61,711 nucleotides of DNA from IMG/VR virus record IMGVR_UViG_3300048836_000712, positions 1 to 61,711 of that record; one strand, written 5' to 3'. The notes below the pieces were generated by a model. It ran no database searches and was not told the DNA's origin. It saw only the letters and a program-made list of their open reading frames with translations. Position numbers and translations under genes: made by a program. The stretch is from a virus. Taxonomy: Duplodnaviria; Caudoviricetes. Below are positions 3,304 through 48,261 of this stretch, in pieces (the stretch's first letter is position 1; the number at the start of each line of letters is the position of its first letter).

Positions 3304-3822
3304 ATGAAACGAATCGGACTATCGGCCAAGCGTTACCTTCAATACATGCGGGGCCGCATGAACCCCGCTCTTGTTCCCGATACGGAACCCAAAAGCACCG
3401 AAGCCACCGCCGGGGAATTGCGGGTCCGTGGATACGCCGCCACGGCGGACAAGTTGAAAACTCTTGTTCGTTCCGGGGTATTGGATTCGTCCACGTCCGA
3501 AGGCAAGCAAGCCGCGTGGACTCGGGAACGCATCGAAGCCGCCGCCGGGATTTTTGAAGCCCGCCAAGACTTCACCACGCAAGCCGCGTTCTATGCCGAA
3601 TACGGTTTGACCATGACGGACTTCGTGGACGCATTGGAAGCCGCCTTTGCCGCCGCCATCGACGAATACGGCAACGCCGCCTTGGTGGTCCTTTCGCCTT
3701 CCGCCAACGAAGACTTCTTTTGCATGACGATTGAACCCGCCTTCCGTAACGAACCCGCCGCCATTTCCTTTGCCCTTGCCCCCAAGGTCCGCAAGGAAAT
3801 TGAAAAGAAGGGCCGCAAGTAA
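3304..3822 (+). CDS. Conserved pre-capsid protein (homolog of 47121-47726)
   Basis: PKSTEATAGELRVRG, WTRERIEAAA and TIEPA align by eye with the element B gene. Confidence 0.75.
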   Translation: MKRIGLSAKRYLQYMRGRMNPALVPDTEPKSTEATAGELRVRGYAATADKLKTLVRSGVLDSSTSEGKQAAWTRERIEAAAGIFEARQDFTTQAAFYAEYGLTMTDFVDALEAAFAAAIDEYGNAALVVLSPSANEDFFCMTIEPAFRNEPAAISFALAPKVRKEIEKKGRK

Positions 3823-3865
3823 CGCCGCCCAGCACAACGGACACAAGCCATGAAAGGAAGCAACC

Positions 3866-5818
3866 ATGACCACCGCCGCCCCAACGCTGCCCGAGGAATT
3901 GACCCTTTCCGCCCCCTTCGTCTTGGACCTTGAAGCCAAGGCAGCGGGGGACGGTAAGCCCCGGTTTTCCCTTGTGGCGAATTCGGGAACGGAACCAATG
4001 AAGGTGGCGGGCTTCTTTGACCCGGTGGTAATTGACCTTGCCGGGGCAACCTTTGATCGGCAACCAACCCCGGTCATTGCGGACCATGACACCACCAAGC
4101 GGATTGGTCACACAACGAAGCAAGCGGTAACGTCCAACGGAATCATGGCGGAAGGGGTGGTGTCTTCCACTTCTCCCGAAGCCACTTCCTTTGTGGCGGA
4201 CGCCAAGGCGGGCTTCCCCTTCCAAGTATCGGTTGGGGCAGCGGTTCAAGAAGCGGTGTTCGTCCCCAAAGGACAATCCGCAACGGTCAACGGTAAGACC
4301 TTCAACGGTCCCATCATCGTTGCCAAGAAGACGTTGATTCGTGAATTGAGCGTAACGGTTTTGGGGGCGGACAAGAACACTTCCGCTTTGGTTGCCCAAG
4401 CCAATAAAAACCACTTTCAAAAAGGGAAGACTATGTCCACCACAACCACCACAAATGACCATGACACCATCCTTGCCGCCGAACGGGAACGGGTGGGATT
4501 GATTGACCAAGCCTTCACCGGGCTTGCGAGGGCCAAGCATGTTGCCGCCCAAGTTGCGGACCTTCGGGCCAAAGCCATGAAGGGCGAAGTTGACGTTGCG
4601 GACTTGCCCGAACGGATTGCGAAGCTTTCCAAGTTGGAAGGTCTTTACGCTGCCCTGCCGGGACAAACGCCGGGAACGGCAATCCATATCCGCCCCGGCA
4701 ACATTCCCAACAACCAAGCGGTGTTGGAAGCCGCCGTTGCTGGTTACGCTTGCGGGTCCAACATCGACCTTGAAGCCACCTATGGCGAAGCCACCGCCGA
4801 AGCCTCAAAGCGGTTGGGTGTCACTTGCCTTATGGACGTGGCAAAGCTTGCGGTTCAAGCAACGGGGCAAGTGTTGGATTGGCGAAACAAAGACCAAGTG
4901 ATTCGGGCTTCGTTTTCGACCGCCGATCTTGGCAACATCTTGTCCAACGTGGCAGGCAAAAGCTTGGAGCAAGCGTATCGGGCGTTCCCGTCCGCCGCCC
5001 GTATCGTGGCGAAGAAGCTGGACGCCGACAATTTCAAGGCCCATACGGGGCTTCGCCTCACCGGTGACGTTGCCTTCCAAAAGGTTGCGAAGGACGGGGA
5101 AATCAAGCATGGCAGTTTGTCGGATTCGGCCTATACCTACCGGGTTGAAACCTTCGCCCGCATGTTGGGCTTGGACCGTCAAACCTTGATTGATGACGAC
5201 ACAAGCAGTTTGGATGATTTGCCCCGCATGTTCGGACGTGGGGCAGCGTTGGCGGTTGAAGAAGTGTTTTGGACGTTGGTTCTTGCCAACACCGGAAGCT
5301 TCTTCCACGCGAACAACAAGAACCTAATTACCGGTGCAACATCGGTCTTGGGTGCAACGGGCTTGGGTCTTGGTGTCCAAAAGTTTTTGGAGCAAACGGA
5401 CGCCAACGGAAAGCCAATCGGCGTGGTCCCGAAGTGGTTGGTTGTTGGTCCGCCTAACAAAGTTACCGCCGATGAATTGTTTGTGTCCCGTACCTTCAAC
5501 GTGGGCGGTGGTTCCACCACGGCAAGCGACAAGGTCACCACGGCAAACGCCTTCTTCGGGCTTTATCAACCGGTGGTGTCGCCTTGGATTGCTTCCGCCG
5601 GTGGCATCGCGGGGGCTTCGGATACTTGTTGGTATCTGTTTGGCGACCCCCGGGACGTTGCCGCCTTCGGGTTGGCTTACTTGAACGGGTCCGAAGCCCC
5701 AACGATTGAACAAGTGGACCAACCCGCCAACAAGCTTGGCGTTCAATGGCGGGCATATCTCGATTTCGGTGCTTGCCAGATTGACCATAGGGGGGCGGTA
5801 CGTTCCGCCGGTGCATAG
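3866..5818 (+). CDS. Prohead protease-major capsid fusion (Mu gpT-like capsid)
   Basis: IADHD, FQVSVGA and ELSVTVLGAD protease motifs; GEIKHG and DFGA...DHRGAVRSAGA capsid motifs; collinear with the two other copies in the window. Confidence 0.9.
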   Translation: MTTAAPTLPEELTLSAPFVLDLEAKAAGDGKPRFSLVANSGTEPMKVAGFFDPVVIDLAGATFDRQPTPVIADHDTTKRIGHTTKQAVTSNGIMAEGVVSSTSPEATSFVADAKAGFPFQVSVGAAVQEAVFVPKGQSATVNGKTFNGPIIVAKKTLIRELSVTVLGADKNTSALVAQANKNHFQKGKTMSTTTTTNDHDTILAAERERVGLIDQAFTGLARAKHVAAQVADLRAKAMKGEVDVADLPERIAKLSKLEGLYAALPGQTPGTAIHIRPGNIPNNQAVLEAAVAGYACGSNIDLEATYGEATAEASKRLGVTCLMDVAKLAVQATGQVLDWRNKDQVIRASFSTADLGNILSNVAGKSLEQAYRAFPSAARIVAKKLDADNFKAHTGLRLTGDVAFQKVAKDGEIKHGSLSDSAYTYRVETFARMLGLDRQTLIDDDTSSLDDLPRMFGRGAALAVEEVFWTLVLANTGSFFHANNKNLITGATSVLGATGLGLGVQKFLEQTDANGKPIGVVPKWLVVGPPNKVTADELFVSRTFNVGGGSTTASDKVTTANAFFGLYQPVVSPWIASAGGIAGASDTCWYLFGDPRDVAAFGLAYLNGSEAPTIEQVDQPANKLGVQWRAYLDFGACQIDHRGAVRSAGA

Positions 5819-5940
5819 TTCAACGGGTGTCGGCAACACCCGCACGCTTGGCCCACGCCCGGGAATCATGGTCCCGGGTATGGGGCAACGCCAAGTGTGG
5901 TCTTGGCCCCGTCCTTCACCAACGGGGCCGGGGACGAAGA

Positions 5941-5986
5941 AGCCACCGGGGGAAACTTACAACTCCGCCCCCGGTGGCTTTCTTTC
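5941..5986 (+). terminator. Rho-independent terminator after the capsid gene
   Basis: AGCCACCGGGGG...CCCCCGGTGGCT 12-bp stem followed by TTCTTTC. Confidence 0.65.
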
Positions 5987-6007
5987 ATTCGCAACAAGGA
6001 CGAAGCC

Positions 6008-6220
6008 GTGTTGTTCCAATACATACGCAAGCCACGGAAGCCCACGCCCCAAGACACCGGGGCTTACTTGCCCACGCCCGAAGAAATCGCCACCACTTGC
6101 CGGGAAATCCAAAACGGTTGGACACCCGAAACGGAAGAAGACCGCCGGACGATTGCCCACAAGCCTTGGTTCGCCCCAATGGTTGCCGTGGAAGCCTTGC
6201 CCGAAGACGTGGACGAATGA
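6008..6220 (+). CDS. Small YLPT-motif protein (homolog of 42460-42693)
   Basis: GTG start after AAGGA, downstream of the terminator; YLPTPEEIATTCREIQNGW. Confidence 0.6.
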   Translation: MLFQYIRKPRKPTPQDTGAYLPTPEEIATTCREIQNGWTPETEEDRRTIAHKPWFAPMVAVEALPEDVDE

Positions 6221-6243: not shown

Positions 6244-6918
6244 TCATGCCGGGTAATCGGCAAGGAAACGCCCAACGTATTTGTGGGCGTCTTGAACGTC
6301 CGCCACGTTCACCTTGGCGAAGTTGCCGTGGGCAGCATCGTTGCGAACGTCCCCAATAGATTGAATCCGCCGCCACGCTGGTTTGTCGTAAACGGTTGCA
6401 CCATGCAAAGCATCGTTGTATTTCGCAAGGTTGCCGTTGCCGGTTACAGTCTTTCCATGTTTGGTGCAAAGCTTCTCCAAGTGGTCTTCCAAAACGCCAC
6501 CAATCAAAACCATTGCGGCAACGTGATAGCCTTGGTCCAAAAGGGACTTGGCTTGTTGCAAGAAATCGTCATGGATGTTTGCCCGAAGGCGGGCTTCCAA
6601 CGAAACAAGCAAGCCCCTATCCACCGCATCCCGCAAAGCCTTCAATGTTCCAAGAATCGAAGGGAGTGCGGTATTGCTATACCCCGGGACGCTAATCCTA
6701 TTTGCGTTGTCCAACTTAGGCAGCAATCGGAAGTATTGGCTTTGCTCACCCGCAATTCGTTCAACGATTGCGAAAGCTTGGGCTGCCAGTGTGCGAAATT
6801 CATGCTCTGGCAAATCCGAGTAATATGCTCCCATATCCATCTTGAAGGATTGGTCCAACCGGTTGCCTTCGGCAATAAGCCCGTCCAATTCCGCCAGCAA
6901 GTCCGCTTCGATACTCAT
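6244..6918 (-). CDS. HEPN/DUF4145-like protein, candidate defence cargo
   Basis: AAMVLIGGVLEDHL and the RxxxxH motif RNDAAH. Confidence 0.7.
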   Translation of the reverse strand: MSIEADLLAELDGLIAEGNRLDQSFKMDMGAYYSDLPEHEFRTLAAQAFAIVERIAGEQSQYFRLLPKLDNANRISVPGYSNTALPSILGTLKALRDAVDRGLLVSLEARLRANIHDDFLQQAKSLLDQGYHVAAMVLIGGVLEDHLEKLCTKHGKTVTGNGNLAKYNDALHGATVYDKPAWRRIQSIGDVRNDAAHGNFAKVNVADVQDAHKYVGRFLADYPA

Positions 6919-7007: not shown

Positions 7008-7298
7008 TCAACCGCACGTCAACTTCTTGTTGATGCTTACCGCCACGTCGGCAAGCGAAACGCTTCGGAAGAACGGGTGGAAGTTTTGCGGTGCAAGGAA
7101 GCCCATGCGACCACCGCCGGTATCCCAAACCGGAACCACGGTTCCCGCGAGTCCCGCCGCCGTCGCACACGCTTGTAGGCTTGCACAAACTTCGTTTTGC
7201 TCATGGTTGGTCTTGTGGCCGAATGAAGAAGCCACGAAGACAATAATCAAATCAACGCCTTGTTCCTTAACGTGGGCAACATCGAATGTCGTGGACAC
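7008..7298 (-). CDS. Small hypothetical protein
   Basis: GTG start with GGAGG RBS; globular 96-aa ORF. Confidence 0.6.
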   Translation of the reverse strand: MSTTFDVAHVKEQGVDLIIVFVASSFGHKTNHEQNEVCASLQACATAAGLAGTVVPVWDTGGGRMGFLAPQNFHPFFRSVSLADVAVSINKKLTCG

Positions 7299-7424
7299 CT
7301 TGGGTTCCTCCCTACGGATGACTTGGGACGCCGAAACGGATAAGATAGACGGACCGCCCAAGGTGCTGGAAACACCAGGGGCGGTCCTAACCACAACACC
7401 CCTTTGTTAAGGAAAGGGAACGTC

Positions 7425-9251
7425 ATGGCTGCACGCCATTCTATCGCCACGCCCACGGCAAGGGCAGTTGCTTACATTCGCCGGTCCACCCACAAGCAAG
7501 AAAAATCCCTTGCGGACCAACGGCGGGAGATTGAAGCCTACGCCGATCGGGAAGGCTTCGTGATTGTCCGTTGGTTTGAAGACGACGGCATAAGTGGGGA
7601 CGCCACCGACAAGCGAAACGGTTTCCAAGCCATGCACGCCAAGGCTTGCAACGGGCGGGACTTTGACGTGATTCTTTGTTGGGACCAAGACCGCTTCGGG
7701 CGGTTCAACAGCATTGAAGCGGGCTATTGGATTCACCCGCTTATGAAAGCCGGGGTCCGCCTTGTCACCGTCACCGAAGGGCCGATCAATTGGGACGATT
7801 TCAGCGGGCGTATCGTCCACGCCGTCAAGCAAGAAGGCAAACACCAATTCTTGGTGGACCTTTCCCGCAACGTCGCCCGGGGGCAGATTACCGCCGTTGC
7901 CCAAGGTTGGATTACCGGGCGTGCCGCCCCTTACGGGTTTGACCGGATGTTGGTTGACGAAGCCGGGAACCACAAGCAACGGGTTCACAATTGCGAACCG
8001 GTGGCGAAGCCCCGTTCATGGCATGTTACCTTAGTCATTGCCGACAACCCCGAAGTGGTCCGCGTTGCCAAGTGGCTGTTTGAAACCTACGTCAACGAAG
8101 ACGTGGGCTTGCGTGAATTGGTCAACCGGTTGAACGGGCAAGGCATCCCCGGCCCCCGGGGCGGACCTTGGCACTTGGGGACTGTCCGGGAAATCTTGAA
8201 GAACGAAACCTACGCCGGGGACTTCATTTGGCCCAAGCGAAGCCTTGGAAAATACCACCGCATTTCCGCCGGGGAAATCAAACCCCGCAACGGGTCAACC
8301 GCCGTGAAGCATACGGACCACGCCGAACGGGTCCACCACGAAGGCATGTTCCCCGCGTTGGTTGACCGCGAAACCTTCAACCGCGTTCAAGCCAAGCTTA
8401 CGGAACGGAAGAAGCGGACCACGCCCCACAAGGCGAAGAACGGGGACGATTACCTTCTTTCCGGTTTGGTCCATTGCGAACATTGCGGGGCCAAAATGTA
8501 CGGGGCACGTTCCAACGCCACGAAGAACGGAAAGAAGTACAGTTACCCCCGCTACGTTTGCTCCACCTATCACACGAAGGGCCGCCACCTTTGCAACCAC
8601 AATACGGTTGACCAAGGGAAGTTGCTTGCCGCCATCGTCACCAAGCTTCGCCAAACGGTGTTGGCGGGCGGTGGCGTGGAACAAGTGGCTTCCCGCGTTG
8701 CCGCCATGTTGAAGAAGCAACTTTCCGCCGCCGGTGGCGAGTCCGAAGGGTTGCGTTCCCGGTTGGCGGAATTGGACAAGCAAGTGGCCCAAGGAACCAA
8801 GCGCTTGCTTGCGGCCCCGGATGACGTGGCGGACCTTCTGGCAGCGGAACTATCCAACCTACGCCGGGAACGGGACCACTTGGCCGAACGGTTGAAGCAA
8901 TCGGCCCCTGCCCCGGTGGACGTGGAAGCCCAAGCGGAAGCCTTGGCCCAACGCCTTTGGACCTTCACCGAAGAAGTGGCCAAAGCCACGCCCGCCCGGC
9001 AACGGGAGTTGCTTCGCCGGGTGGTGGGCAAGATAAGCCTACGGTTTCGCCAAACGAAGTGGGGCCGCAAGTCCGTATCCCGCTTTGACGGCGGAACGGT
9101 GGACTTGCGGCCCCATTCGGACTTGTACAGTCTTGTCAGTCGGGGCGACTGGCCGTCGTTTGAACGCGTGGTCGCGACCGTGGTGGACGCCGCGCTCTCG
9201 CCAAACGCGGAAACCATTGTAGCACACCGGGTTGTACGGTTGTCGGCGTGA
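7425..9251 (+). CDS. Large serine recombinase of element A; tail after SRGD probably from the neighbouring element
   Basis: YIRRST catalytic Ser, DQDRFGR, APYGF, and Zn-ribbon CEHC...YVC. Confidence 0.92.
   Translation: MAARHSIATPTARAVAYIRRSTHKQEKSLADQRREIEAYADREGFVIVRWFEDDGISGDATDKRNGFQAMHAKACNGRDFDVILCWDQDRFGRFNSIEAGYWIHPLMKAGVRLVTVTEGPINWDDFSGRIVHAVKQEGKHQFLVDLSRNVARGQITAVAQGWITGRAAPYGFDRMLVDEAGNHKQRVHNCEPVAKPRSWHVTLVIADNPEVVRVAKWLFETYVNEDVGLRELVNRLNGQGIPGPRGGPWHLGTVREILKNETYAGDFIWPKRSLGKYHRISAGEIKPRNGSTAVKHTDHAERVHHEGMFPALVDRETFNRVQAKLTERKKRTTPHKAKNGDDYLLSGLVHCEHCGAKMYGARSNATKNGKKYSYPRYVCSTYHTKGRHLCNHNTVDQGKLLAAIVTKLRQTVLAGGGVEQVASRVAAMLKKQLSAAGGESEGLRSRLAELDKQVAQGTKRLLAAPDDVADLLAAELSNLRRERDHLAERLKQSAPAPVDVEAQAEALAQRLWTFTEEVAKATPARQRELLRRVVGKISLRFRQTKWGRKSVSRFDGGTVDLRPHSDLYSLVSRGDWPSFERVVATVVDAALSPNAETIVAHRVVRLSA
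9139..9165 (+). other. Putative hybrid att junction (GAC core 9147-9149), tRNA-Pro 3'-end-like
   Basis: GTCGGGGCGAC-TGG...TTTGAAC resembles the reverse complement of a tRNA-Pro 3' end; composition changes here. Confidence 0.55.
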
Positions 9252-32807: not shown

Positions 32808-32810
32808 GGC

Positions 32811-33191
32811 TTACACCCCGCTGCTCGAGGCGCTCTCGGTCGGCACCGCGCACGGGCACAACCGCACACGAACCGTCGCGTCGGCATCGGCCGCCGCCTT
32901 TACAACCTTGCCAAGCAGCTTGTAAGCGCCGCCGCCGTCGTCGGTCACCGCGACCTTATTCACGGAGTCCCAGTAGGCCAGCGCCCCGACGGCGAATGTC
33001 ACGCCGCCGTCCGCCTCCTTGGCGAAGTCGAACACTCCAATGACGGCGAGCGCACCCAGGACGTTGGCCTTGATGTCGAGCGAAGCAACGCCGACGAGAT
33101 CGCCTTGCACGATCACGTCGCCGGCGGTCACATCCGCGCTGGGGGTGTAATCGATGGTCTTGCCATCGTGAACGAACTCTGCGGTTGCCAT
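32811..33191 (-). CDS. DUF2190-like capsid decoration protein
   Basis: FVHDGKTIDYT...GVFDFAK...YWD...ATVRVRL. Confidence 0.85.
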   Translation of the reverse strand: MATAEFVHDGKTIDYTPSADVTAGDVIVQGDLVGVASLDIKANVLGALAVIGVFDFAKEADGGVTFAVGALAYWDSVNKVAVTDDGGGAYKLLGKVVKAAADADATVRVRLCPCAVPTESASSSGV

Positions 33192-33212
33192 GTGGCTTCT
33201 CCTTCGAGTGGT

Positions 33213-38885: not shown

Positions 38886-39074
38886 TCAATTGCCGGTTCC
38901 GATCACGCGTTCCCAGGTCGTGATTCGTTGCCCGCAGTGTCGGCACTCTCTACGACGAACAACCTTTCCACCCCAGGCCGAGCGAGTGTAGACAACCCAG
39001 AAATGTCTGCAGCCACAGTTGTGGCATTGAAGGCCGCGGTCGCCATCACGGGGCATCTTCTGATCGTGCTTCAC
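38886..39074 (-). CDS. Zn-ribbon protein (NrdR-N/Ogr-like), possible late activator
   Basis: CHNCG...RRRECRHCGQRITTWE. Confidence 0.7.
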   Translation of the reverse strand: MKHDQKMPRDGDRGLQCHNCGCRHFWVVYTRSAWGGKVVRRRECRHCGQRITTWERVIGTGN

Positions 39075-40465: not shown

Positions 40466-40489
40466 GTCCCCTCCCACGACCTGTGTGGA
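40466..40489 (-). other. att junction at the LSR end; attP half-site
   Basis: Minus strand TCCACAC-N14-GAC. Confidence 0.85.
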
Positions 40490-42217
40490 AGCGAAAGCTG
40501 ATTGCAAATCGGCGTACAGAATAATCGTGCCAGTGTTGGCGTCGGGTTCGATCTCGATGCGCTGCACGAAAGCTTCCACCAATTGCCGATCGGCCAGGGT
40601 GATTTCGGCCTTCGCAGCAATCGCATCCAGTCTCGCCAGTTGCTCACTGGCCCAATCGCGTAATTGCTGTTGAGTGAGCGCCGGTCGCGTCGTCGCGTCG
40701 CTGGCCTTCTGCTGGCTCATCAGCGCGTCGCGCTTCCGCTTCAGTTCCGTCAGCACGGTGTGAATGTCATCCAGGCCGTCGAAGGTCGGGTCGGCGAGCA
40801 AGGCAACGGTCGTCTTGATGCGGCGGTTGATCTGGTCGAGCTCGCGCCGTTGCTCCGAAGCGTTGGTGGCCGCAATCGGCTTCGAGACGGATTTCACAAA
40901 GGCGTCGATGGCCTGCTTCCGCGTCTTGGCGTCGCCCTGCAACACCTGGCCGATGACCTTCAGCACGAACTCATCGAGCGCCGGCCCCGGAATACGAACC
41001 AGGCCGCAAACATTCTTCCCGTAGCGATGGTAGCCGGAGCAGGTGTAATGCCGGTAAGGACCGCCAAGTCCCGGCTTCCGCCGGTGGTCGCGGACGGTCG
41101 TGAAGCTCATACCGCAGCGTTTGCAAACGAGCAGCGTCGAAACCAGCGTGCGCCGCACCGAGCGGGCTTTGCCGCCGGCGTCCCTGCGTTTCAGGATGCC
41201 CGCCTGAACGGCGTCGAACGTCTCCTTGGAAACCAAAGGTTCGTGAACGTTGGGGACGATGATCCAGTCCGACTCCTGGTTCTTAAAGTTACCGCGTTTG
41301 CCCTTCTTGGCCTTCAGCTTGCCGTTGGCGTCCATGCTGAACAGCGAGCCGCTTGTCCGCTTGTTGTAGGCCAGCGCTCCGTAGTACACCGGCGACCGCA
41401 GCATCTGCGCGATGTTGGACGTGTTCCATTTGAATCCGAACATCGTCGGCACGCCTTCTTCGTTGAAGCGCTCCGCGATGTACTTGAACCCGTAGCCCTT
41501 CGCGCTGAGGTCGAACATGCGCTGAATCGCTTGGACGTGCTCCGGCGTGCTGGGCGTATAGCGCACGATGTCTCCCTTCGCCTTGGCCACGTAAACGTCG
41601 CCGGCAATGGTGCGGACCAGCTTGCCCTCGGCGTCGAATTCGAGTTTGCTGCCATCGGCCATCCAACGCAGCGTGCGGACGACTTTGCCATCCGGCGTGA
41701 CGTGCTGCTTGTCGTAGCCGTAAGGCGGTTGCCCGCCCGGCGCGCTCTTGCGTTCGCGGATGTTGCTGATTTGACCGCGAATGGAATCCCGCGCGAGCTT
41801 CACCGAGTACTGCCGCGCTTGCCAGGACTTCACGCCCTGAATGAGTTCGCCTTCGTCGCCCTCGGGAATGCCGTCAGCGGTGAAAACTACATCGACGCCG
41901 GCGAGCCGCAAGCGATGCAGGTAATACCCGGTCTCATTCGTTCCGCCGCGCGAGAAGCGTGAAATGTCATAGCAGAGAATGGTGTCGAAGTCGCGACCGT
42001 TCTCGGCGGCAGCGATGATCTGTTCGAACGCATTGCGGCCCTTCGCGCTGGTGCCGGAGATTGCGTCATCGATGAACCACCGCACGATGCGGTAGCCATG
42101 CTCCTTGGCCCATTTCTCGACGTAGGCCTGCTGGTCGGGGATCGAGCGCTCCTGCATGTCGGTGCTGCGGCGGGCGTAGCCGACCGCAGGGATGCCACTA
42201 GAATTACGAGTAGCCAT
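40466..42217 (-). CDS. Large serine recombinase of element B (no stop; reads through into terL-C as far as 39071)
   Basis: YARRST, DISRFSR, PPYGY and CKRC...YTC; first part of the 1053-aa ORF. Confidence 0.92.
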
Positions 42218-42459
42218 TGCTTCCCTTTCCAATACAAAGGGTGGTCTTGGTCAGAGCCGCTTCGGCGTTGCGCGTCCGAGCGGCTCGTTTCGTTCACGAA
42301 CCACCACAGTTACCAGGACATCGCCGCAGTCATCCAGCCGGTACCAGCGCGCGCGGGTGGCCTGCGTTCGCGTCGCCGGGCCGGTCGGACGAGCGGTCCA
42401 ACCGTAAGAAAAGGCCGCGTCGTGCGGCCTCGTGGGCGACGTGGTGGCGAACCGGGGCA

Positions 42460-42693
42460 TCAGATGCCGGCCGTGGTGGCCACTGCGAACTCCCCGTCGC
42501 GCGGGCGGCGCTTGGCCGCACCACGCCAGCCTTTGATCGCGCGGAACAACCGGCACTTGGCGGCGATCTCCCGTTTGGTCGGCAGGTATTCGAGCGTTCC
42601 GTTCGTCGCCCGCGTCCATCGCCCGCGATCTACCCACCGGCCTTCGATCTGCCACTGGCGGACTTGGCCTGTCAACATCTTCTGCTCGTCCAT
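42460..42693 (-). CDS. Small YLPT-motif protein
   Basis: YLPTKREIAAKCRLFRAIKGW; similar to 6008-6220. Confidence 0.6.
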   Translation of the reverse strand: MDEQKMLTGQVRQWQIEGRWVDRGRWTRATNGTLEYLPTKREIAAKCRLFRAIKGWRGAAKRRPRDGEFAVATTAGI

Positions 42694-42814
42694 CGTTCTG
42701 GCTCCCAATTATGTGGTTTCGGCGGGCGGCCATTCCGCCCGCGGGAGTCACACAGGAGCCAGCAGTTCCGAAACATTGCAAGTCAATCGCTGCCAAATTG
42801 CTGAAGATTTTCAT

Positions 42815-43051
42815 CTAGGCTTCATCCTCGTCGACAAGTTCCGCCAGGGCGTCGTTCCACGGCAATCGGCCATCGCGGATCGCGGCCTCGATCCGTTTGA
42901 AGAACCGCCATTCCCACAGCGGGACGATGGCGACGTCCTCGCGCTTGTACCGCCGCACGATGATCGGCTCGTCCGTATTCGCCACGTGCTGGCAGGCGAT
43001 GCCCAGCCCGTCACGAAGGTGCGTAATGCTCATCTGGTGTTCGGTGGCCAT
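42815..43051 (-). CDS. Phd/YefM-like antitoxin-fold regulator
   Basis: MSITHLRDGL...VANTDEPIIVRR...VAIVPL. Confidence 0.7.
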   Translation of the reverse strand: MATEHQMSITHLRDGLGIACQHVANTDEPIIVRRYKREDVAIVPLWEWRFFKRIEAAIRDGRLPWNDALAELVDEDEA

Positions 43052-43349: not shown

Positions 43350-44960
43350 TCACCTCTCCTCCGGTTGCGGTTCGGTGGCGAACTGCACTGGATGGGTAGC
43401 ACCGAATTTCCAGCGGTGAATCAACCCCTGCGACTCGGCCTGCTTGAGCAGCTTGGTCGCCTTGCGTTCCGACAAGCCGGCATCCATCGCCGCCTGCGTG
43501 AGGGCCAGGATCGTGGCCGGCGTCGAGCCGACGAACGACTCGGCGAACCGCTCGACGTCCCACTCAGGCTTGGCCGGCGCGTCGGGGGCGACGGGTTTGG
43601 GTTCCTTGCGCCGTCGCGGGCGCTCAGGCCGCAGGTCGGCCGGGTCGAGCGAGTCGTCGGGGGTCCAGACGGGAAACGTCCACCGCAAGCAGCGCGGCGA
43701 CAACGGGGGCCAGGACCGAACGGCAGCATCGAGCACGACCACGTCGTCCTGCTCATGCGGCCGCAGGATCAGGTGGGTATCGGTGGCCCGCGACTGCGAG
43801 CCCGCGCCGGCCCCGACGTCGGTCACGCTCTTGCCCGACTGGTTCCCCTTGCTGCTGTGATGCACCAGCGCGAAGGCGCACCCCAAGCGGGCCGCGAACG
43901 AGTCCAGCACGTTGTAGACCTGGGCCATCGTCCCGTTGTCGTTCTCGTCGGTGTCGCGCGGCATGAATCTGTAAAATGCATCGAGCACCACGAGCTTGAA
44001 CCGGCCCGGCGGCAACTGCTGGAAGTATTCCCCCAGGCCGAAGATGTCCTTGAGCCGGCCCCGCATGTTGGCGACGAACACGCGGTCGGCGACTTCCTCG
44101 AGCACAACGTCGCGGGCCTGCATCACCTTGGGGATGCGATGGGCGCTCGTCTCGCGGTGCAATTCGTTGTCGACGATCAGCACGTCCCCCCGCTCACACG
44201 CGAACGTATCAAGCCAGGAGCGTCCGGTGGCGACCGCCAGGGCCAGATCGGTCACGAGCCAACTCTTGCCGACTTTGCTGGTTGCGATCACGTTCATGGT
44301 TTCCCCTTCCCGCAGTAGGCCGTGAATCACCGGCCGGCGCAGGTCGGGGTTCTCGTTGATCAGTTGGCGAAGGCTCTTGACCGCCAGGGAAAGGGGCAGG
44401 TTGTTGGCCTTCGCCTCTTCCTTGGCGACTTGTTCGAGGCGGTCGAGCAAGGCGCGGCGCTCGGGGTCGATGCACTCCTCCGGCGCGGGCGGGCCCTTGA
44501 TCGTGGCCGGGTTGATTTCCGCGCCGGCCCACCGCCGCACCCGCTCGGCCCAAGGTTGCATCACCAGCAGGCGAATTGCCTCATCGAGAACTCCCCGGTC
44601 CTCGAACTTCTCCCAGCACTGGGCGGCAAGCTCGAAGGCCTGGACGCGGCCCCGATGGCGGGCGGCCTCAACGTCGTGCCCCGCGCGGTAGAGCACCTGC
44701 TCGGAATCGAATTCGGGATTCCCGTACAGCGCGGCGCTGGGAACCAGCACCTCGGCGCGCTCGCGGGCGTTGCGGCGATCCTGCCAGGCGGCTTCAATCA
44801 ATTCGCAGTCGGGGATGTCCCACTCCGCGACGACGTTCGCCGCCTCTACGAAGGCGGATCGATAGGCCCGCTCCGCTTCCATCAACAGAGGCGTGGAGGA
44901 AAAATCGGGACCGTCGTTGTAGAACCGCACCGTGTCAGCCGGCAGCGTCAGCGTTGGCAT
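43350..44960 (-). CDS. AAA_25/RepA-type replicative helicase
   Basis: ATSKVGKS, VDNEL, LVVLDAFYR, LVHHSSKG and GAGSQSR. Confidence 0.88.
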   Translation of the reverse strand: MPTLTLPADTVRFYNDGPDFSSTPLLMEAERAYRSAFVEAANVVAEWDIPDCELIEAAWQDRRNARERAEVLVPSAALYGNPEFDSEQVLYRAGHDVEAARHRGRVQAFELAAQCWEKFEDRGVLDEAIRLLVMQPWAERVRRWAGAEINPATIKGPPAPEECIDPERRALLDRLEQVAKEEAKANNLPLSLAVKSLRQLINENPDLRRPVIHGLLREGETMNVIATSKVGKSWLVTDLALAVATGRSWLDTFACERGDVLIVDNELHRETSAHRIPKVMQARDVVLEEVADRVFVANMRGRLKDIFGLGEYFQQLPPGRFKLVVLDAFYRFMPRDTDENDNGTMAQVYNVLDSFAARLGCAFALVHHSSKGNQSGKSVTDVGAGAGSQSRATDTHLILRPHEQDDVVVLDAAVRSWPPLSPRCLRWTFPVWTPDDSLDPADLRPERPRRRKEPKPVAPDAPAKPEWDVERFAESFVGSTPATILALTQAAMDAGLSERKATKLLKQAESQGLIHRWKFGATHPVQFATEPQPEER

Positions 44961-45282: not shown

Positions 45283-47124
45283 TCAGGCTTCCCCCTTGGC
45301 CTTGTAGGCGGCACGGTGATCGGCCAGGGCCGCACCGAAATCGTGATACACCCGCCACGATGCGGCCAGCGTGTTGGGGTCGGCATCGAACCCGAAGAAC
45401 TCGACGGTGGGGGACTGCTTCCCTTGGAGGAACGCAACCACCAGCGCGGCGTCCGCCGGGCCGGCGAACAGATACCACGCCTTGCCGCTCGTGCCGTCGA
45501 ACCGCTCGTCGTTCGACAGACGCGGCTCGACCTCTAGCGACACCGAATTCTTCAGCGCGTTGCCGGTCGGCAGGTCGTTGTTGGCCCGCTGGATGAAGTC
45601 GCTGAGCAGCAACTCCTTGGCGGTCTGTTGCAACTCCGGCGGCACCAGGAGCGTGCGCGGCCGGATGTCGAGGTCGCGGTTCTCGTCGTCCCGTTGCGCC
45701 AGCATCTTGGCGATGCCGGCGGCGAGCGAAGTCGAACCGAGCACCGTCCCCGCGCCGGCGTCGTAGTTGCCGTGGCCGGTGCTGAAGAAGTTGCCGGTGT
45801 TCGCCAGCAGCACCTTGTAGACTAGGTCGGAGAGCGAACGCATCGCGGCCCGCCCCAGCGAGCGGGCCGTGTCGTCGAACAGGCTGAGGTCGTCGTTGAT
45901 GATGTCCCGCCGGTCGATGCTGAGCATCTTGGCGAAGGTGTCGATGGAGAAACCGTACATCGCCTCCTTCACCGAGCCGTGCTTGATCTCGCCGCCGGGC
46001 GGAAGCTGCGTCAACTCCCCGGTATCGCTGATGCGGATGCCGGTGTGTTGCTTGAAATCGACGGCCGACTTCACCGAGGCGAAGGCCCGCCAGGTGGCCG
46101 GCGACTCGGTGTAGGACTCGAACAGCAGCTTGTTGGCCGCGTCCCCCAGGGCGGTCGGCAACGAGTAGGTGGAGAGCGCCGCCTTGATCAGCCCGTCGCG
46201 GCCGTGCGGGGCGTCGCGGCCGTCGATTACGAGCGCCGCACGGCACAGATCGACCAGGTTCGTCGCCCGCAGGTCGCGGGCCCGCTGCGCGGCTTCCGGC
46301 CCCAGGTGCTTCTCGGCCAGGTGCTCGCTGTTCATGTGGGCCAGGATCGCCGCCTCGAGCACCAAGCGCGAGGCGGGCTCCTCGCGGGGGTGCGTCGAGA
46401 GCGGGATCGGCCGCCGCGCCCGCAGCACTTCCAGTTCCGTCCGCTGAGCGTCCCAGCCCTCGGCGATGGCCTTGGCTTCGATGTTGCCGAACCGCCCGCC
46501 GCAGGCCTTGCGGATGGCGTGGATGCGAGTCGTTTCCGCCAGGGCGTCGGCCCGAATCTGCTCGGCGGTGAGCGTTTCCGTTTGAGACATGTTTTGCTCC
46601 TTCCCGTTGGCCGCAATCGAGACCGACGTACCGGCGTCGGCCCCGATGGCGACGATGCTGACCTCCCGCAGCACGCCCGCACGCACGAGCGTGAACCCGC
46701 TGGCCGGCGCTTTGAGGGCGCGGCCGTTGACCTCCACCGTCTCGCCGCCCCGCACCCGCTGGTAGTCGGTGGGTGCGACGCCGACCGATGCCTGGAAGCG
46801 GAACCCGCCCTTGGCCAGATCGACCACTTGGCGAGCCGCATCCGTTGAAGGCGTGATGGTGCCTTGCACCAGCAACTTGCCGTTGGCGACCACCGCTTTG
46901 CCATGCCCAACAATGCCGGCTAGCGAAGCATTGTGATCGGCCAGGATGCTCACCTGCTCGGCCGAGGCGTCGATGCCGCCGAGTTCAATGGCAACCGGGC
47001 CCCAGCCGGGCACAACCATCAGTCCGCCGGTATAGGCGACGATGCTCACCGCCGGCGACTTGCCCGTTGCCTGAATCTCGACCTCTGCGGCCGAGAGCAA
47101 AAGTTCATCAATTGCAACGGTCAT
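45283..47124 (-). CDS. Element B prohead protease-major capsid fusion
   Basis: ILADHN, FQASVG, EVSIVAIGAD, GEIKHG and HDFGAALADHRAAYKAKGEA. Confidence 0.92.
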   Translation of the reverse strand: MTVAIDELLLSAAEVEIQATGKSPAVSIVAYTGGLMVVPGWGPVAIELGGIDASAEQVSILADHNASLAGIVGHGKAVVANGKLLVQGTITPSTDAARQVVDLAKGGFRFQASVGVAPTDYQRVRGGETVEVNGRALKAPASGFTLVRAGVLREVSIVAIGADAGTSVSIAANGKEQNMSQTETLTAEQIRADALAETTRIHAIRKACGGRFGNIEAKAIAEGWDAQRTELEVLRARRPIPLSTHPREEPASRLVLEAAILAHMNSEHLAEKHLGPEAAQRARDLRATNLVDLCRAALVIDGRDAPHGRDGLIKAALSTYSLPTALGDAANKLLFESYTESPATWRAFASVKSAVDFKQHTGIRISDTGELTQLPPGGEIKHGSVKEAMYGFSIDTFAKMLSIDRRDIINDDLSLFDDTARSLGRAAMRSLSDLVYKVLLANTGNFFSTGHGNYDAGAGTVLGSTSLAAGIAKMLAQRDDENRDLDIRPRTLLVPPELQQTAKELLLSDFIQRANNDLPTGNALKNSVSLEVEPRLSNDERFDGTSGKAWYLFAGPADAALVVAFLQGKQSPTVEFFGFDADPNTLAASWRVYHDFGAALADHRAAYKAKGEA

Positions 47125-47726
47125 TTCACCACCTCCTGGGGCTCAAGCTTAGCGCCCTTGGGGTAAAACCAGACGTAGGCGTAATCATCAGGGTCTTCGG
47201 CGGGTTCGATCACCGTCGCCAGTCCCAACGGGTCAAAACTCAACCCGACGCTAACGCCGTAGCGCGCGGCGGCGACGCGATGTGCTTTGACACATTGGCC
47301 AAATCGCAGATTGCATACCCAGCAGAAGTGCGTCCACGAACCCCAGTACTCATGCTCATAGAGCCATTCGGCGGCTGCATCGATGTCCTCCTTCTCCCAG
47401 AACATGATGTGGATGGACGGAACGTAATCGACGTTGCCCTGGTCGTCGGTCACCAGCGAGTGTCCGCGGCGGGGATTGCAGATGCCCCGCTCGACTAGGT
47501 GCTGCAGCATCGGCTCGTCGCACTTGAGCCCGCGCAGCCGCAGCTCGCGGAACGCTCCTTCGGTGTGCTTCGGGTACTGGAGCGACGAACTCGAGTTGTA
47601 ATGGTTCGGATTGGGAATGTCCGAACCGGGCAACAAACTGATCAGGTGATTGAAGTCTTCCCGCAGCCAGTAGTAGCGCTTCTTGCTTTCCTGCCGCGCG
47701 GGCAGTTCGTCAGTCAGCTTTGGCAT
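47121..47726 (-). CDS. Conserved pre-capsid protein (homolog of 3304-3822)
   Basis: PKHTEGAFRELRLRG, WEKEDIDAAA and VIEPA. Confidence 0.75.
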   Translation of the reverse strand: MPKLTDELPARQESKKRYYWLREDFNHLISLLPGSDIPNPNHYNSSSSLQYPKHTEGAFRELRLRGLKCDEPMLQHLVERGICNPRRGHSLVTDDQGNVDYVPSIHIMFWEKEDIDAAAEWLYEHEYWGSWTHFCWVCNLRFGQCVKAHRVAAARYGVSVGLSFDPLGLATVIEPAEDPDDYAYVWFYPKGAKLEPQEVVK

Positions 47727-48261
47727 TCTTGTGCTCCTTTCGTAGTGCTTCCAATTCTCGTTCCACGGTCCGCAAGCCGATGCTGAGTTCGTCAGCAATC
47801 TCGGCGTTGGAATAGCCCGCCATGCGCAGGCCGATGACCTTGCGCCGGCGCGGCGGCAATGACGCGAGATAGTCGTTGAGTCGAGCTATCTCGGCGGGGT
47901 CGCCCTGCGCCCGTTCGTGCCGCGAGGGGGTGTCCCAAGCACGAACGGCGTCTTCACTCCAGAGATTCCCTGATTGGTCGATGGATGGGCTGGTGAGTAG
48001 GTCGGATTGGGATTTCGGTTCGTGGCGTCGTTGGGATCGATAGTCGCGGAACAAGTTTGAGATGCGGGCGACCATGCGGTTCTTGGCCAGACCAAGGTCG
48101 CCTTCGTCTTGCCAGACCTGCCAGCCGGCAAGGAACAGGTCTTGCGCCGCGTCTTCCATGCGGTGCTCGTCCCAGTTCAGTTGGCGTCGCCTCTTCAGCT
48201 TCCGCACCAAGGCTTGGGCGAACTTGAAAAGGTCTTCAGGACTATCGCGTTCTTCAACCAT
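47710..48261 (-). CDS. ECF sigma-factor-like regulator
   Basis: EDAAQDLFL (region 2-like) and LPPRRRKVIGLRMAGYSNAEIADELSIGLRTVER (region 4). Confidence 0.8.
   Translation of the reverse strand: MVEERDSPEDLFKFAQALVRKLKRRRQLNWDEHRMEDAAQDLFLAGWQVWQDEGDLGLAKNRMVARISNLFRDYRSQRRHEPKSQSDLLTSPSIDQSGNLWSEDAVRAWDTPSRHERAQGDPAEIARLNDYLASLPPRRRKVIGLRMAGYSNAEIADELSIGLRTVERELEALRKEHKNAKAD

What the first reader, a model, noticed from the sequence alone, without database searches (positions are those of the whole stretch)
3304..48261. Two related capsid-only islands (A and B) suggest an undescribed satellite family
Seen: both carry a protease-capsid fusion of the same type as the helper's (650 and 613 aa vs 673 aa). 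Both have a homologous gene directly upstream (PKSTEATAGELRVRG/PKHTEGAFRELRLRG; WTRERIEAAA/WEKEDIDAAA; TIEPA/VIEPA). Both have a small downstream gene (YLPTPEEIATTC..GW/YLPTKREIAAKC..GW), an LSR with YxRRST at the end, and opposite-strand cargo. Neither has portal, terminase or tail genes. Known: cf-PICIs encode full head and packaging modules, while P4 and PLE remodel helper capsids with scaffolds. Inference: these islands supply their own shell and borrow portal, terminase and tail, or form tailless particles. B is roughly a quarter of the helper's estimated length.
Basis: partly seen in the sequence, partly recalled or inferred. Interest (0 to 1): 0.88.

Follow-up and report, generated by a model that had tools for sequence, protein, structure and literature searches.

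The report
Satellite islands embedded in phage genes
Island B is a 10.4 kb mobile element that carries its own capsid gene and sits exactly inside the DNA-packaging (terminase) gene of a Planctomycetota phage, one member of a widespread, apparently undescribed family of likely phage parasites; island A is a poorer, lone relative.

Summary
The sequence features are largely real. Their meaning changes in one major way.

**Island B (40466-50872, minus strand)** is not merely near a helper phage. It is inserted, in frame and in the same orientation, in the Walker-B codons of the helper's large terminase gene.
- The terL N-half is 50873-51748 and the C-half is 39071-40465.
- Sludge-metagenome contigs hold the uninterrupted terL. 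They also hold the same island end joined to a second helper gene (ParB-methylase).

**The family.**
- 86 capsids of this clade, almost all from Planctomycetota, share the order pre-capsid wHTH protein, ECF-like sigma, protease-scaffold-capsid fusion, helicase, serine recombinase.
- None has a portal gene upstream.
- Members lie in terL (two sites), portal, ParB-methylase, tRNA or tmRNA.
- Their scaffold segment is about 50 residues shorter than in helper capsids.

**Known and new.** Helper-embedded satellites are known (HE-PICIs: tyrosine integrases, enterobacteria). This is a serine-recombinase, single-head-gene variant in another phylum.

**Island A (about 2473-9150)** shares the pre-capsid family, the capsid type and a 30%-identical recombinase.
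- It lacks helicase and sigma.
- Its capsid falls outside the satellite clade.
- No close relative was found and its target is unresolved.

"Capsid-only" does not fit B. The parasitic life cycle is inferred, not shown.

The parts
2473..3141 (+). Island A: 222-aa protein upstream of the pre-capsid gene, possible winged helix
   Evidence: ORF reads like a real protein. Only a weak HTH_34 match, E 0.019. No relatives in the fetched loci.
3304..3822 (+). Island A pre-capsid gene (172 aa), member of the 'pre' family
   Evidence: Profile from non-window members gives E 5.8e-18. Model pLDDT 90 with a MerR/excisionase-like winged-helix part. No Pfam family.
3866..5818 (+). Island A protease-scaffold-major capsid fusion (650 aa)
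   Evidence: Phage_capsid_4 E 2e-38. NF045541 E 4.5e-81. Lies outside the satellite capsid clade.
5897..6220 (+). Island A small ORF with the YLPT..EIA..C motif
   Evidence: Only E 0.022 against the profile of the three clear members.
6244..6918 (-). Island A opposite-strand cargo, 224 aa, weakly DUF4145/HEPN-like
   Evidence: E 2.5e-4 and 4.5e-4, both under the curated cut-offs. No PADLOC match.
7008..7394 (-). Island A opposite-strand cargo, 128 aa, unknown
   Evidence: No family match.
7404..9251 (+). Island A large serine recombinase (615 aa); likely crossover after the codons for ..SRGD at about 9149/9150
   Evidence: Domains. Relatives L177-L179 (55-56% identity) share the sequence up to ..SRGD(W) and then diverge.
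39071..40465 (-). Helper terL C-terminal part (nuclease domain), read in frame behind the island B recombinase
   Evidence: GpA_nuclease E 1.4e-25 at residues 748-1024 of the 1053-aa ORF. Aligns to intact terL of related phages from ORF residue 589 onwards.
40466..42232 (-). Island B large serine recombinase (native part about 588 codons); right end of island B
42460..42708 (-). Island B small YLPT protein just upstream of the recombinase
   Evidence: Clear homologs in the same position in L107 and L182.
42815..43051 (-). Island B 78-aa Phd/YefM-like ORF
   Evidence: PhdYeFM_antitox E 0.002, under the cut-off.
43350..44960 (-). Island B AAA_25 (RepA/DnaB-like) helicase; the start codon is my guess
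   Evidence: AAA_25 E 1.2e-32. Start position. Conserved downstream of 55 of 86 satellite-clade capsids.
45283..47124 (-). Island B protease-scaffold-major capsid fusion (613 aa)
   Evidence: Lies in a clade of 86 capsids that includes none with helper context. That clade has SH-aLRT 100 in the smaller IQ-TREE tree.
47121..47726 (-). Island B pre-capsid gene ('pre' family); start taken at the first ATG
   Evidence: L009 homolog is 57% identical.
47710..48351 (-). Island B ECF-like sigma factor (region 4 detected)
   Evidence: Sigma70_r4_2 E 8.9e-9 and Sigma70_ECF E 3.4e-8. The L004-type counterpart has Sigma70_r2.
48514..50779 (+). Island B opposite-strand cargo: 347 aa (transglutaminase-like), 257 aa and 134 aa
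   Evidence: The 347-aa gene recurs in the same place in other islands, for example L004, L005, L092, L098. No PADLOC match.
50786..50872 (-). Left end of island B: conserved tail codons (..RMGSRVERVxFAWERG..) read behind the terL N-part
   Evidence: The same tail lies at the left end of islands in whatever target. A strict pattern finds it in 19 ORFs: 9 in ParB-methylase, 4 at the terL Walker-B site, 1 at a second terL site, 5 in unknown targets.
50873..51748 (-). Helper terL N-terminal part (ATPase), residues 1-292, ending in the Walker-B codons
   Evidence: phrog_38 terminase large subunit E 5.5e-21. Alignment to intact terL of related phages.
25500..36681 (-). Helper late genes: portal 35224-36681, capsid fusion 33213-35312, cement 32811-33191, head-tail joining 32424-32807, tape measure 28394-30382, tail genes
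   Evidence: Synteny with many IMG/VR phages and with three prophages of genome G005.
53914..55227 (-). Helper ParB-N/DNA methylase gene, intact here; the alternative target of B-type islands, near codon 320-338
   Evidence: Split by islands in L005, L096, L098, L102, L103 and L104. Contigs join island end 50875 to 54266/54269.

Best explanation
**What island B is.** Island B is a helper-embedded phage satellite.
- It is a 10,407-bp integrative element.
- Its large serine recombinase placed it, co-oriented and in frame, in the Walker-B codons of the large terminase gene of a lambda-like Planctomycetota siphophage.

**The family.** It belongs to a phylum-wide family with the core order pre-capsid wHTH protein, ECF-like sigma factor, protease-scaffold-capsid fusion, replication helicase, small DNA-binding protein, integrase.

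**Shown here**
- The exact insertion.
- Empty and alternative sites in nature.
- The conserved architecture without portal, terminase or tail genes.
- A separate capsid clade with a shorter scaffold segment.
- Co-occurrence with helper-type prophages.

**Inferred**
- While B is integrated, the helper cannot make TerL.
- On induction the recombinase excises B and restores terL.
- Excision also gives the recombinase gene back its own conserved C-terminal tail, because the attachment site lies inside the gene's 3' end.
- B replicates with its own helicase.
- Its sigma factor drives its single head gene.
- The resulting shells, probably smaller, are built on the helper's portal, filled by the helper's terminase and joined to helper tails.
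- The pre protein may be the DNA-recognition or excision factor.

**Island A.** It is a reduced, divergent relative with pre, capsid fusion, small ORF, two cargo genes and recombinase. Its target and activity are unresolved.
For: **Insertion in terL**
- The terL N-part (phrog_38) and C-part (GpA_nuclease) flank B.
- Intact terL genes of six related phages align to residue 292 of the N-part and from residue 589 of the fusion ORF, at ..LVLID|DPQTDE...

**Mobility**
- An X1 contig joins 40465 to 50874 with one letter between, which restores ..LDDPQ...
- An X4 contig joins 40469 to 50907 with 30 other letters between.
- X1, X3 and X4 contigs join island end 50875 to 54266/54269 in the ParB-methylase gene.

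**Relatives embedded in helper genes**
- All 7 close relatives found in IMG/VR touch helper genes: terL in L006 and L007; ParB-methylase in L005, L004, L008 and L010; portal in L009.
- At least 11 of 80 genome loci do so as well.
- Recombinase and target read in one frame at three independent sites.
- Recombinase identity to B tracks the target: terL 70-78%, ParB-methylase 62-64%, second terL site 48%, portal 31%.

**Architecture of the 86 satellite-clade capsids**
- pre upstream in 63.
- sigma upstream in 60.
- helicase downstream in 55.
- serine recombinase downstream in 49 (40 of the 49 loci with enough sequence downstream).
- portal upstream in 0.
- helper structural genes within 4 kb downstream in 2.

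**Capsid clade and scaffold**
- The clade holds 79 of 80 satellite-context capsids and 0 of 88 helper-context capsids. Its SH-aLRT support is 100.
- The scaffold segment has median 174 aa against 225 aa in helpers. Protease and capsid parts are equal in length.

**Co-occurrence with helpers**
- One complete chromosome holds 3 intact helper-type prophages and 2 islands.
- 5 of 7 pre-positive genomes have a helper-type portal, against 39 of 393 others (p 2.3e-4).
Against: **Functional steps not observed**
- No excision product of this exact genome was seen. The empty terL contig differs by one base at the joint, so it may be a never-occupied allele.
- No circular junction was listed. Those runs are contigs, which hide rare forms.
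- No particle, transcript or protein data exist.

**Limits of the comparative evidence**
- No packaging site was identified.
- The pre protein's role rests on a roughly 65-residue fold likeness with Foldseek E above 0.1.
- In some enterobacterial PICIs the capsid gene is not needed for transfer (stated in the introduction of PMC10111431). A capsid gene therefore does not prove that the element builds its own shell.
- The co-occurrence test ignores relatedness of genomes and includes embedded cases.
- The loci were gathered with B-clade capsid patterns, so the family picture is biased towards that clade.

**Island A**
- It has no helicase or sigma gene.
- No capsid relative above 45% identity was found.
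- Its pre protein has only itself in the 5.8-billion-protein search.
- Its left end is unknown.
Confidence: 0.65

Rival explanations
1. The islands are selfish integrative 'intervening elements' that ride inside phage genes, tRNA genes or tmRNA genes but are not packaged as satellites. On this view the capsid fusion serves another end. It might poison or compete with helper head assembly as a defence carried for the host. It might instead be dispensable baggage captured from phages.
For: - No packaging signal or small-terminase homolog was found. The pre family matches no Pfam family.
- Islands carry cargo typical of defence islands. Methylase and HsdS genes sit in the cargo slot of L153, L168 and L171.
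Against: - The capsid gene is the most conserved island gene. It is intact in all 86 clade members used, and it forms its own old clade with a consistently shortened scaffold segment. That argues for a selected structural role.
- The islands also keep their own replication and sigma genes.
Confidence: 0.17
2. A and B are deletion remnants of full prophages, dead head modules left next to an integrase.
For: - The nearest relatives of A's capsid (35-39% identity) lie in complete head-tail modules.
- A lacks replication and sigma genes.
- L004 and L010 show rearranged islands fused to helper head or tail genes.
Against: - For B, the same gene order and size recur in 80 genome loci of two classes and in 7 viral contigs. 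Borders are sharp and ORFs are intact.
- The helper gene is split precisely and in frame, and empty sites exist in nature.
- Random decay would not give this pattern.
Confidence: 0.04
3. The islands make tailless, portal-less shells on their own, either compartments or gene-transfer-like particles, without any helper.
For: One gene encodes protease, scaffold and shell. Many members sit in tRNA or tmRNA sites away from any phage.
Against: - Without a portal and terminase there is no known route to fill a shell of this kind with DNA.
- Members repeatedly target packaging and head genes of one phage lineage.
- They co-occur with that lineage.
Confidence: 0.05
4. Island A is not a working satellite of this helper. 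It is a stranded or decaying relative, or a different element that picked up a phage-type capsid gene on its own. Its nearness to B is a coincidence of a contig rich in mobile DNA.
For: - A's capsid lies outside the B clade on a long branch. The joint clade has p-AU 0.030.
- It has no helicase or sigma gene.
- It has no close relative.
- Its recombinase's 55%-identical relatives show no A-type capsid or pre gene nearby.
- An IS-like remnant and a defence cluster flank it.
Against: - A's capsid and recombinase ORFs are full length.
- Its pre gene is a solid family member at E 5.8e-18.
- Gene order pre, capsid, ..., recombinase matches the family.
- Its scaffold segment (188 aa) is shorter than its neighbour helper's (215 aa).
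Confidence: 0.35

Closest known systems
Helper-embedded PICIs (HE-PICIs; Tommasini, Mageeney & Williams 2023, PMC10111431). I read the abstract, section 17 and searched passages.
   Same: - Satellites integrated inside late genes of their helper prophage and co-oriented with them.
- Targets include the cognates of terminase A, portal B, protease C and capsid E.
- They often carry their own capsid gene.
- Integrase subclades track the sites.
- Relatives also sit at chromosomal sites.
   Different: - HE-PICIs use one clade of tyrosine integrases with AlpA, and attL/attR share an identity block (10 bp in the model case).
- They were found in genomes reached from an enterobacterial model.
- Here the integrase is a large serine recombinase whose attachment site lies in its own 3' end.
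- The host phylum is Planctomycetota.
- The head module is one protease-scaffold-capsid fusion preceded by a sigma factor and a new wHTH protein.
- A non-late gene (ParB-methylase) is also a target.
Capsid-forming PICIs (cf-PICIs; preprint 10.1101/2022.09.08.507074, search listing and start of abstract only)
   Same: Satellites that encode their own capsid rather than remodelling the helper's.
   Different: By their abstract, cf-PICIs encode all proteins needed to make and fill small capsids and steal only tails. The islands here have no portal, connector or terminase gene inside their borders.
PLE of Vibrio cholerae (PMC9410903, search listing and start of abstract; further details recalled)
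   Same: A phage satellite that uses a large serine recombinase, excises on helper infection and replicates on its own.
   Different: PLE sits in the host chromosome, parasitises a lytic phage and, as I recall, has no capsid gene of its own.
P4-like satellites and ordinary chromosomal PICIs (recalled; families named in the abstract of PMC10085698)
   Same: - About 10 kb in size.
- Integrase plus primase/helicase plus regulators.
- tRNA or tmRNA integration in the chromosomal members. The L152 type has DUF3987 plus a tyrosine integrase at tmRNA.
   Different: As I recall, P4 resizes the helper's own capsid with Sid. Here a complete capsid fusion gene is carried instead.
Integrases whose attachment site lies inside their own gene (SSV1-type, recalled), and serine-recombinase intervening elements that split host genes (skin, SPbeta; recalled)
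   Same: - Integration changes the end of the integrase gene.
- Excision restores a split gene exactly.
   Different: - Those cases involve archaeal tyrosine integrases or bacterial sporulation genes.
- Here only the last 20-30 codons are exchanged, and the split gene belongs to a phage.

Membership tests
Helper-embedded PICI (HE-PICI) | [quoted passage not shown] | tested here: met
   - B lies in terL, on the same strand and in the same frame.
- Relatives lie in terL, portal and ParB-methylase.
- Not shown for A.
Helper-embedded PICI (HE-PICI) | Integrase of the single tyrosine-integrase clade described, with AlpA | tested here: not met
   A and B integrases have Resolvase, Recombinase and Zn_ribbon_recom domains. 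No Phage_integrase domain was found in either island.
Capsid-forming PICI (cf-PICI) | Own portal, head-tail connectors and small terminase besides the capsid | tested here: not met
   - No portal, connector or terminase match inside A or B.
- 0 of 86 clade capsids have a portal upstream. Only 2 of 86 have helper structural genes within 4 kb downstream.
Large serine recombinase | N-terminal resolvase catalytic domain, recombinase domain and zinc ribbon | tested here: met
   with E values 1e-9 to 1e-25 for the three domains in all three recombinases of the window.
Prohead protease/major capsid fusion (NCBIfam NF045541; Pfam Phage_capsid_4) | One polypeptide aligned over protease, linker and HK97-type capsid parts | tested here: met
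   - Profile positions about 47-634 of 634 are covered, E 1e-72 to 1e-88. Scores of 242-296 bits lie under the model's 525-bit cut-off, so these are relatives rather than equivalogs.
- Phage_capsid_4 is above its cut-off.
- PDB relatives are Mu GpT-type capsids.
Phage satellite (general sense) | Mobilised and packaged only with a helper phage's particles | not testable with these tools
   Only indirect evidence: lack of portal, terminase and tail genes, embedding in helper genes, and co-occurrence.
Phage satellite (general sense) | Discrete element, present or absent at a defined site | tested here: met
   Uninterrupted terL and alternative-site joints in public contigs. Intact terL in related phages.

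The most novel reading that the evidence does not exclude
A phylum-wide class of phage parasites needs only one structural gene, a protease-scaffold-capsid fusion with a shortened scaffold. With it the parasite builds its own small heads on a stolen portal. The embedded members act as a checkpoint on the helper:
- They split terL, portal or the ParB-methylase gene.
- Their serine recombinase regains its true C-terminal tail only on excision.
- The helper therefore cannot package until the parasite has left and begun its own programme.

A bolder form is that the in-frame recombinase-TerL nuclease chimera made in the integrated state has a function of its own.
Probability: 0.3. Interest if true: 0.85.

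Novelty: new variant of a known kind. Interest (0 to 1): 0.7.

Why it matters
- Satellites are known mainly from Proteobacteria and Firmicutes. This would add a family in Planctomycetota, a phylum with almost no phage biology.
- It would show that lodging inside the helper's own packaging and head genes arose a second time with a different recombinase class.
- It offers a minimal head module, one gene, for asking how scaffold length sets capsid size.
- It offers a set of natural serine recombinases with mapped sites in conserved phage genes. These sites include a Walker-B motif, an invariant target that the helper can hardly change.
- It warns annotators that a viral contig may be a composite of a phage and its parasites. 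Here about 10.4 kb of a 61.7 kb record is island B alone.

Tried and rejected
**Island A's left end and target remain unresolved**
- Direct repeats in 1-12000 gave only chance-like families.
- A 15-base search with A's recombinase-side arm found 2 matches against 3.7 expected.
- A palindrome score around 9150 did not exceed background. The same score also failed on B's known sites, so the test is uninformative.
- ORFs flanking A have no homologs in the fetched loci apart from methylases and one 880-aa relative.

**Closer relatives of island A**
- Capsid against IMG/VR, metagenome contigs and 401 Planctomycetota genomes: nothing above 45% identity.
- pre against IMG/VR: nothing.
- pre against 5.8 billion proteins: only itself.

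**Other attempts that led nowhere**
- pre alignment A2 was too divergent for locus scans.
- GpA_ATPase (PF05876) did not detect the terL N-half. PHROGs did.
- The target of 15 Phycisphaerae islands ('..SASSIHS..') gave no Rfam hit in six loci and no tRNA.
- Codon-position variation in the conserved tail (0.22, 0.27, 0.33) is too weak to separate protein constraint from DNA-site constraint.
- Foldseek gave no whole-fold match for pre.
- Read laying listed no circular island junction. The runs are contigs and 13 joints were not shown, so this says nothing either way.

**Readings considered and dropped**
- That recombinase 3 (60481-61710) marks a third island. Its left neighbours do not fit the island order, so it is more likely the helper's own integrase.
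- That the 671-aa ORF 51959-53974 is a gene. It is the antisense shadow of a HARE-HTH gene.

**Tools and files not used**
- Complex prediction and the second structure job were not used.
- Supplementary files of PMC10111431, which list its 491 elements, were not opened. They could hold non-enterobacterial or serine-recombinase cases that I cannot exclude.

Full report
**What the window is**

The window is a whole IMG/VR virus record of 61,711 bp. It is linear, with CheckV completeness 87%. No tRNA gene is present.

Pfam, PHROGs and NCBIfam scans give this map:
- **Late region of a lambda-like siphophage, minus strand.**
  - Portal, 35224-36681.
  - Protease-capsid fusion, 33213-35312.
  - Cement protein and head-tail joining protein.
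  - Tape measure, 28394-30382.
  - Tail genes.
- **Further right.**
  - ParB/methylase gene, 53914-55227.
  - Primase-helicase, 57579-60068.
  - A third serine recombinase, cut by the contig end.
- **Left part (1-21650).** Island A, a Type I restriction system and other accessory genes.

**The observation**

The three capsid ORFs are real and homologous over their full length: A-B 32%, A-helper 31%, B-helper 36%.
- All three align to the NCBIfam model 'prohead protease/major capsid protein fusion' over nearly its whole length. The 'fusion' reading therefore holds.
- The upstream genes look only weakly alike pairwise (E 2e-5). A profile made from four relatives from other contigs finds A's gene at E 5.8e-18 and B's at E 1.1e-7 among 39,027 ORFs. 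They are one family, which I call 'pre'.
- The two recombinases are 30% identical.

The YLPT similarity is the weak point.
- B's copy has clear homologs in L107 and L182, always just upstream of a recombinase.
- A's copy reaches only E 0.022 against their profile.
- The family is rare in the loci.

Several long ORFs in A are antisense artefacts: 2388-3200 (-) and 5827-7410 (+). The real genes there are 2473-3141 (+), 5897-6220 (+), 6244-6918 (-) and 7008-7394 (-).

**Island B is inside the helper's terminase gene**

- The 1053-aa ORF 39071-42232 holds a complete serine recombinase at residues 16-427. It also holds a GpA terminase nuclease domain at residues 748-1024.
- The ORF 50783-51748 matches the ATPase part of large terminases.
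- In six related phages with intact terL, the N-part aligns to residue 292. The fusion ORF aligns from residue 589, with the two meeting at the same base.
- The DNA alignment puts the break in ..LVLID|DPQTDE.., the Walker-B motif.
- Island B therefore spans 40466-50872, which is 10,407 bp.
- From the terL-N side it holds:
  - three opposite-strand cargo genes;
  - a sigma-like gene;
  - pre;
  - the capsid fusion;
  - an AAA_25 helicase;
  - a Phd-like ORF;
  - the YLPT ORF;
  - the recombinase.

**Relatives**

Scanning IMG/VR with B's capsid gave 124 relatives, of which 80 were kept. Seven of these are 70-92% identical. The other 73 kept loci, at 33-41% identity, are ordinary phages with portal, capsid and cement genes.

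All seven close relatives are islands of B's type that touch helper genes:

| Locus | Context |
|---|---|
| L006, L007 | In terL, at the same site as B |
| L005 | In the ParB-methylase gene (residues 1-338, island, residues 323-436) |
| L009 | In the portal gene (residues 4-366, island, residues 330-468), followed by the helper's own capsid, cement and joining genes |
| L004, L008, L010 | Begin in ParB-methylase; L004 and L010 are rearranged on the right |

A scan of one genome per species with an alignment of these capsids gave 150 relatives, of which 80 were kept.
- 76 of the 80 are in records titled as Planctomycetota lineages, in both Planctomycetia and Phycisphaerae.
- One is an isolate, Roseimaritima sediminicola.

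**Architecture of the family**

| Feature, among the 86 capsids of the clade | Count |
|---|---|
| pre within 2 kb upstream | 63 |
| sigma-like gene upstream | 60 |
| AAA_25 helicase downstream | 55 |
| serine recombinase within 7 kb downstream | 49 (40 of the 49 with enough sequence) |
| portal upstream | 0 |
| helper structural genes within 4 kb downstream | 2 (L004 and L010) |

- The sigma-like protein shows region 2 in the L004 type and region 4/ECF in B.
- Many islands also carry, just before the recombinase, a small HARE-HTH protein with a lysine-rich head. The helper has a homolog at 52475-52900.
- In some Phycisphaerae members the replication and integration modules are replaced by DUF3987 and a tyrosine integrase next to tmRNA. 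The constant core is therefore pre, sigma and capsid.

**Targets and the attachment site**

- The left end of B-type islands encodes a conserved peptide..D|RMGSRVERVxFAWERGKV... It is read behind whatever gene was hit. A strict pattern finds it in 19 ORFs: 9 in ParB-methylase, 4 at the terL Walker-B site, 1 at a second terL site and 5 in unknown targets.
- At the right end the recombinase ORF runs on in frame into the rest of the target:
  - 409-465 further residues of TerL in the window, L006, L007, L100, L107 and L108;
  - 125-145 further residues of the methylase in L005, L096, L098, L103 and L104.
- The simplest reading is that the crossover lies inside the 3' end of the recombinase gene, right after a ..GD codon pair. 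The conserved peptide would then be the recombinase's own tail in the excised form. This is an inference.
- Recombinase identity to B follows the target: 70-78% for terL, 62-64% for the methylase, 48% for the second terL site, 31% for portal.
- Other members end at tRNA-Met or tRNA-Pro genes (L113, L117, L129, L170) or at tmRNA (L141, L146, L152, L164).
- At least 11 of the 80 genome loci have a helper gene piece at a junction. Many loci are too short to tell.

**Evidence from public runs**

Twenty runs of 16 studies hold part of island B. They are mostly sludge, wastewater and soil metagenomes. They are kept as contigs.

I laid four of them on 35500-55400:
- One X1 contig joins 40465 to 50874 with one letter between. 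By my reading of the flanks this restores ..LDDPQ.. with GAT for GAC.
- One X4 contig joins 40469 to 50907 with 30 other letters between.
- Contigs of X1, X3 and X4 join island end 50875 to 54266/54269, the methylase site.

Occupied terL, empty terL and the same island end at the other target all exist in nature. X1 may be the source sample, so it is not independent. Contigs can prove neither excision nor its absence.

**Capsid phylogeny and scaffold length**

- In a FastTree tree of 176 capsids, one side of a branch holds 79 of 80 satellite-context capsids, none of 88 helper-context capsids, six without context and L004. The only satellite-context capsid on the other side is A's.
- In an IQ-TREE mixture-model tree of 47 rows, the 21 B-type capsids form a clade with SH-aLRT 100. 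The window's helper capsid is among their nearest outgroups. A sits on a long branch with weak support.
- Forcing all 22 satellite-context capsids together costs 25.3 log-likelihood units (p-AU 0.030).
- Protease and capsid parts have equal lengths in the two groups. The segment between them is shorter in the satellite clade: median 174 aa (range 151-178, n=84) against 225 aa (171-257, n=87). B has 161 aa, A 188 aa and the helper 215 aa.
- A shorter scaffold fits, but does not prove, smaller heads for a 10 kb genome.

**Helper link**

- The complete chromosome G005 has three intact helper-type prophages: methylase, terS-like ORF, terL, portal, capsid, cement, joining, tape measure. It also has two islands.
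- In 401 sampled Planctomycetota genomes, 8 have pre and 45 have a helper-type portal.
- Leaving out the centre genome, 5 of 7 pre-positive genomes have the portal, against 39 of 393 others (Fisher p 2.3e-4).
- This test does not correct for relatedness and includes embedded cases.

**The pre protein**

- With a 37-row alignment it folds confidently (pLDDT 90).
- No whole-fold match was found. A part of about 65 residues resembles MerR-type winged helices (RacA, BldC) and excisionase domains, with probabilities up to 0.93 but E above 0.1.
- No Pfam family fits.
- Its profile finds 357 representatives at E up to 0.001 among 1.84 billion proteins.
- As I recall, the small terminase of lambda has a DNA-binding domain of this fold. 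A role in DNA recognition for packaging, or in excision, is therefore a lead and not a result.

**Island A**

- It has pre, a capsid fusion and a recombinase in the family order.
- It has no helicase and no sigma.
- Two opposite-strand cargo genes sit in the middle.
- Recombinases 55-56% identical (L177-L179) agree with it up to ..SRGD(W) and then diverge. This places A's right junction near 9149/9150.
- I could not find its left end or its target. The island may run off the contig's left end.
- No closer relative of its capsid or pre gene turned up anywhere.

**Comparison with what is known**

Helper-embedded satellites were described by Tommasini, Mageeney and Williams (PMC10111431; abstract, section 17 and passages read).
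- They report 491 further PICIs at 14 sites in nine lambda-like late genes.
- The elements are co-oriented with their target, often carry their own capsid gene, and belong to one tyrosine-integrase clade.

The present family works alike but fails that family's defining integrase feature. It also differs in phylum, in head module and in the position of the attachment site.

Full-text searches gave:
- no paper holding both 'Planctomycetota' and 'phage satellite';
- 1 paper, on PLE, holding 'phage satellites', 'large serine recombinase' and 'capsid';
- 7 papers for Planctomycetes, prophage, satellite and capsid, none of which is about such elements by title or abstract.

I therefore rate it a new variant of a known kind. 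It is of real interest for phage-satellite biology, and every functional step is still to be tested.

Noticed in passing
window 37112-39074: A low-GC (0.51) two-gene insert lies between terL and portal. It holds a 353-aa M78/M48-peptidase-like protein that also matches PADLOC PD-Lambda-2_B and RmrA models, and a 209-aa unknown. Neither gene has relatives in the helper-type loci. The 62-aa ORF 38886-39074 next to terL has an NrdR-like zinc ribbon and is conserved in 46 loci.
   Followed up: partly
window 9252-20936: An accessory cluster lies to the right of island A:
- an 880-aa protein with a C-terminal DeoR/WYL-like HTH;
- a Type I restriction system with two HsdM paralogs (51% identical), HsdS and HsdR;
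- an FRG-domain protein matching PADLOC candidate PDC-S15 (E 1e-45).

Related methylase and HsdS genes sit in the cargo slot of other islands: L153, L168, L171.
   Followed up: partly
window 51959-53974: The 671-aa minus-strand ORF is an antisense artefact. The real gene is 52475-52900 (+), a HARE-HTH protein with a lysine/alanine-rich head, opposite in direction to the late genes. Its homologs lie just upstream of the recombinase in many islands.
   Followed up: yes
window 60481-61710: A third large serine recombinase is cut by the contig end. Recombinases 68-77% identical to it occupy the integrase slot of some islands: L124, L097, L135. The recombinase modules therefore seem to be exchanged between phages and islands.
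   Followed up: partly
L004 6943-9299; L010 7014-12152: These are rearranged loci. A stub of the island helicase is followed directly by the C-part of a helper capsid gene (L004) or by head-tail joining and tape-measure genes (L010). They could be deletions between an island and the helper, recombination between two islands, or assembly chimeras.
   Followed up: no
G005 (loci L152, L197-L200): One complete 3.6 Mb Phycisphaeraceae chromosome carries three intact helper-type prophages and two islands. One island has a serine recombinase. The other has DUF3987 plus a tyrosine integrase at tmRNA.
   Followed up: yes
L094, L101, L111, L118: Four of the 80 island loci come from bins titled Pseudomonadales, Alcaligenaceae or Chloroflexota. 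Given the other 76, these are probably mis-binned contigs rather than other hosts.
   Followed up: no
window 1607-1885 (-): A 92-aa ORF reads like the C-terminal end of an IS21-type helper ATPase (IstB). This is by eye and from memory and was not tested. It would be an IS remnant to the left of island A.
   Followed up: no
window 21676-25485 (-): Four or five glycosyltransferase and FkbM-methyltransferase genes, with the high GC3 of the phage late genes, lie directly beside the tail genes. They have no relatives in the other helper-type loci.
   Followed up: no
genomes G294, G338, G051, G404: Helper-type portal genes in several draft genomes are split over two contigs near residues 240-360. 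This is close to the portal insertion site of L009. The assembly breaks may mark further embedded islands.
   Followed up: no
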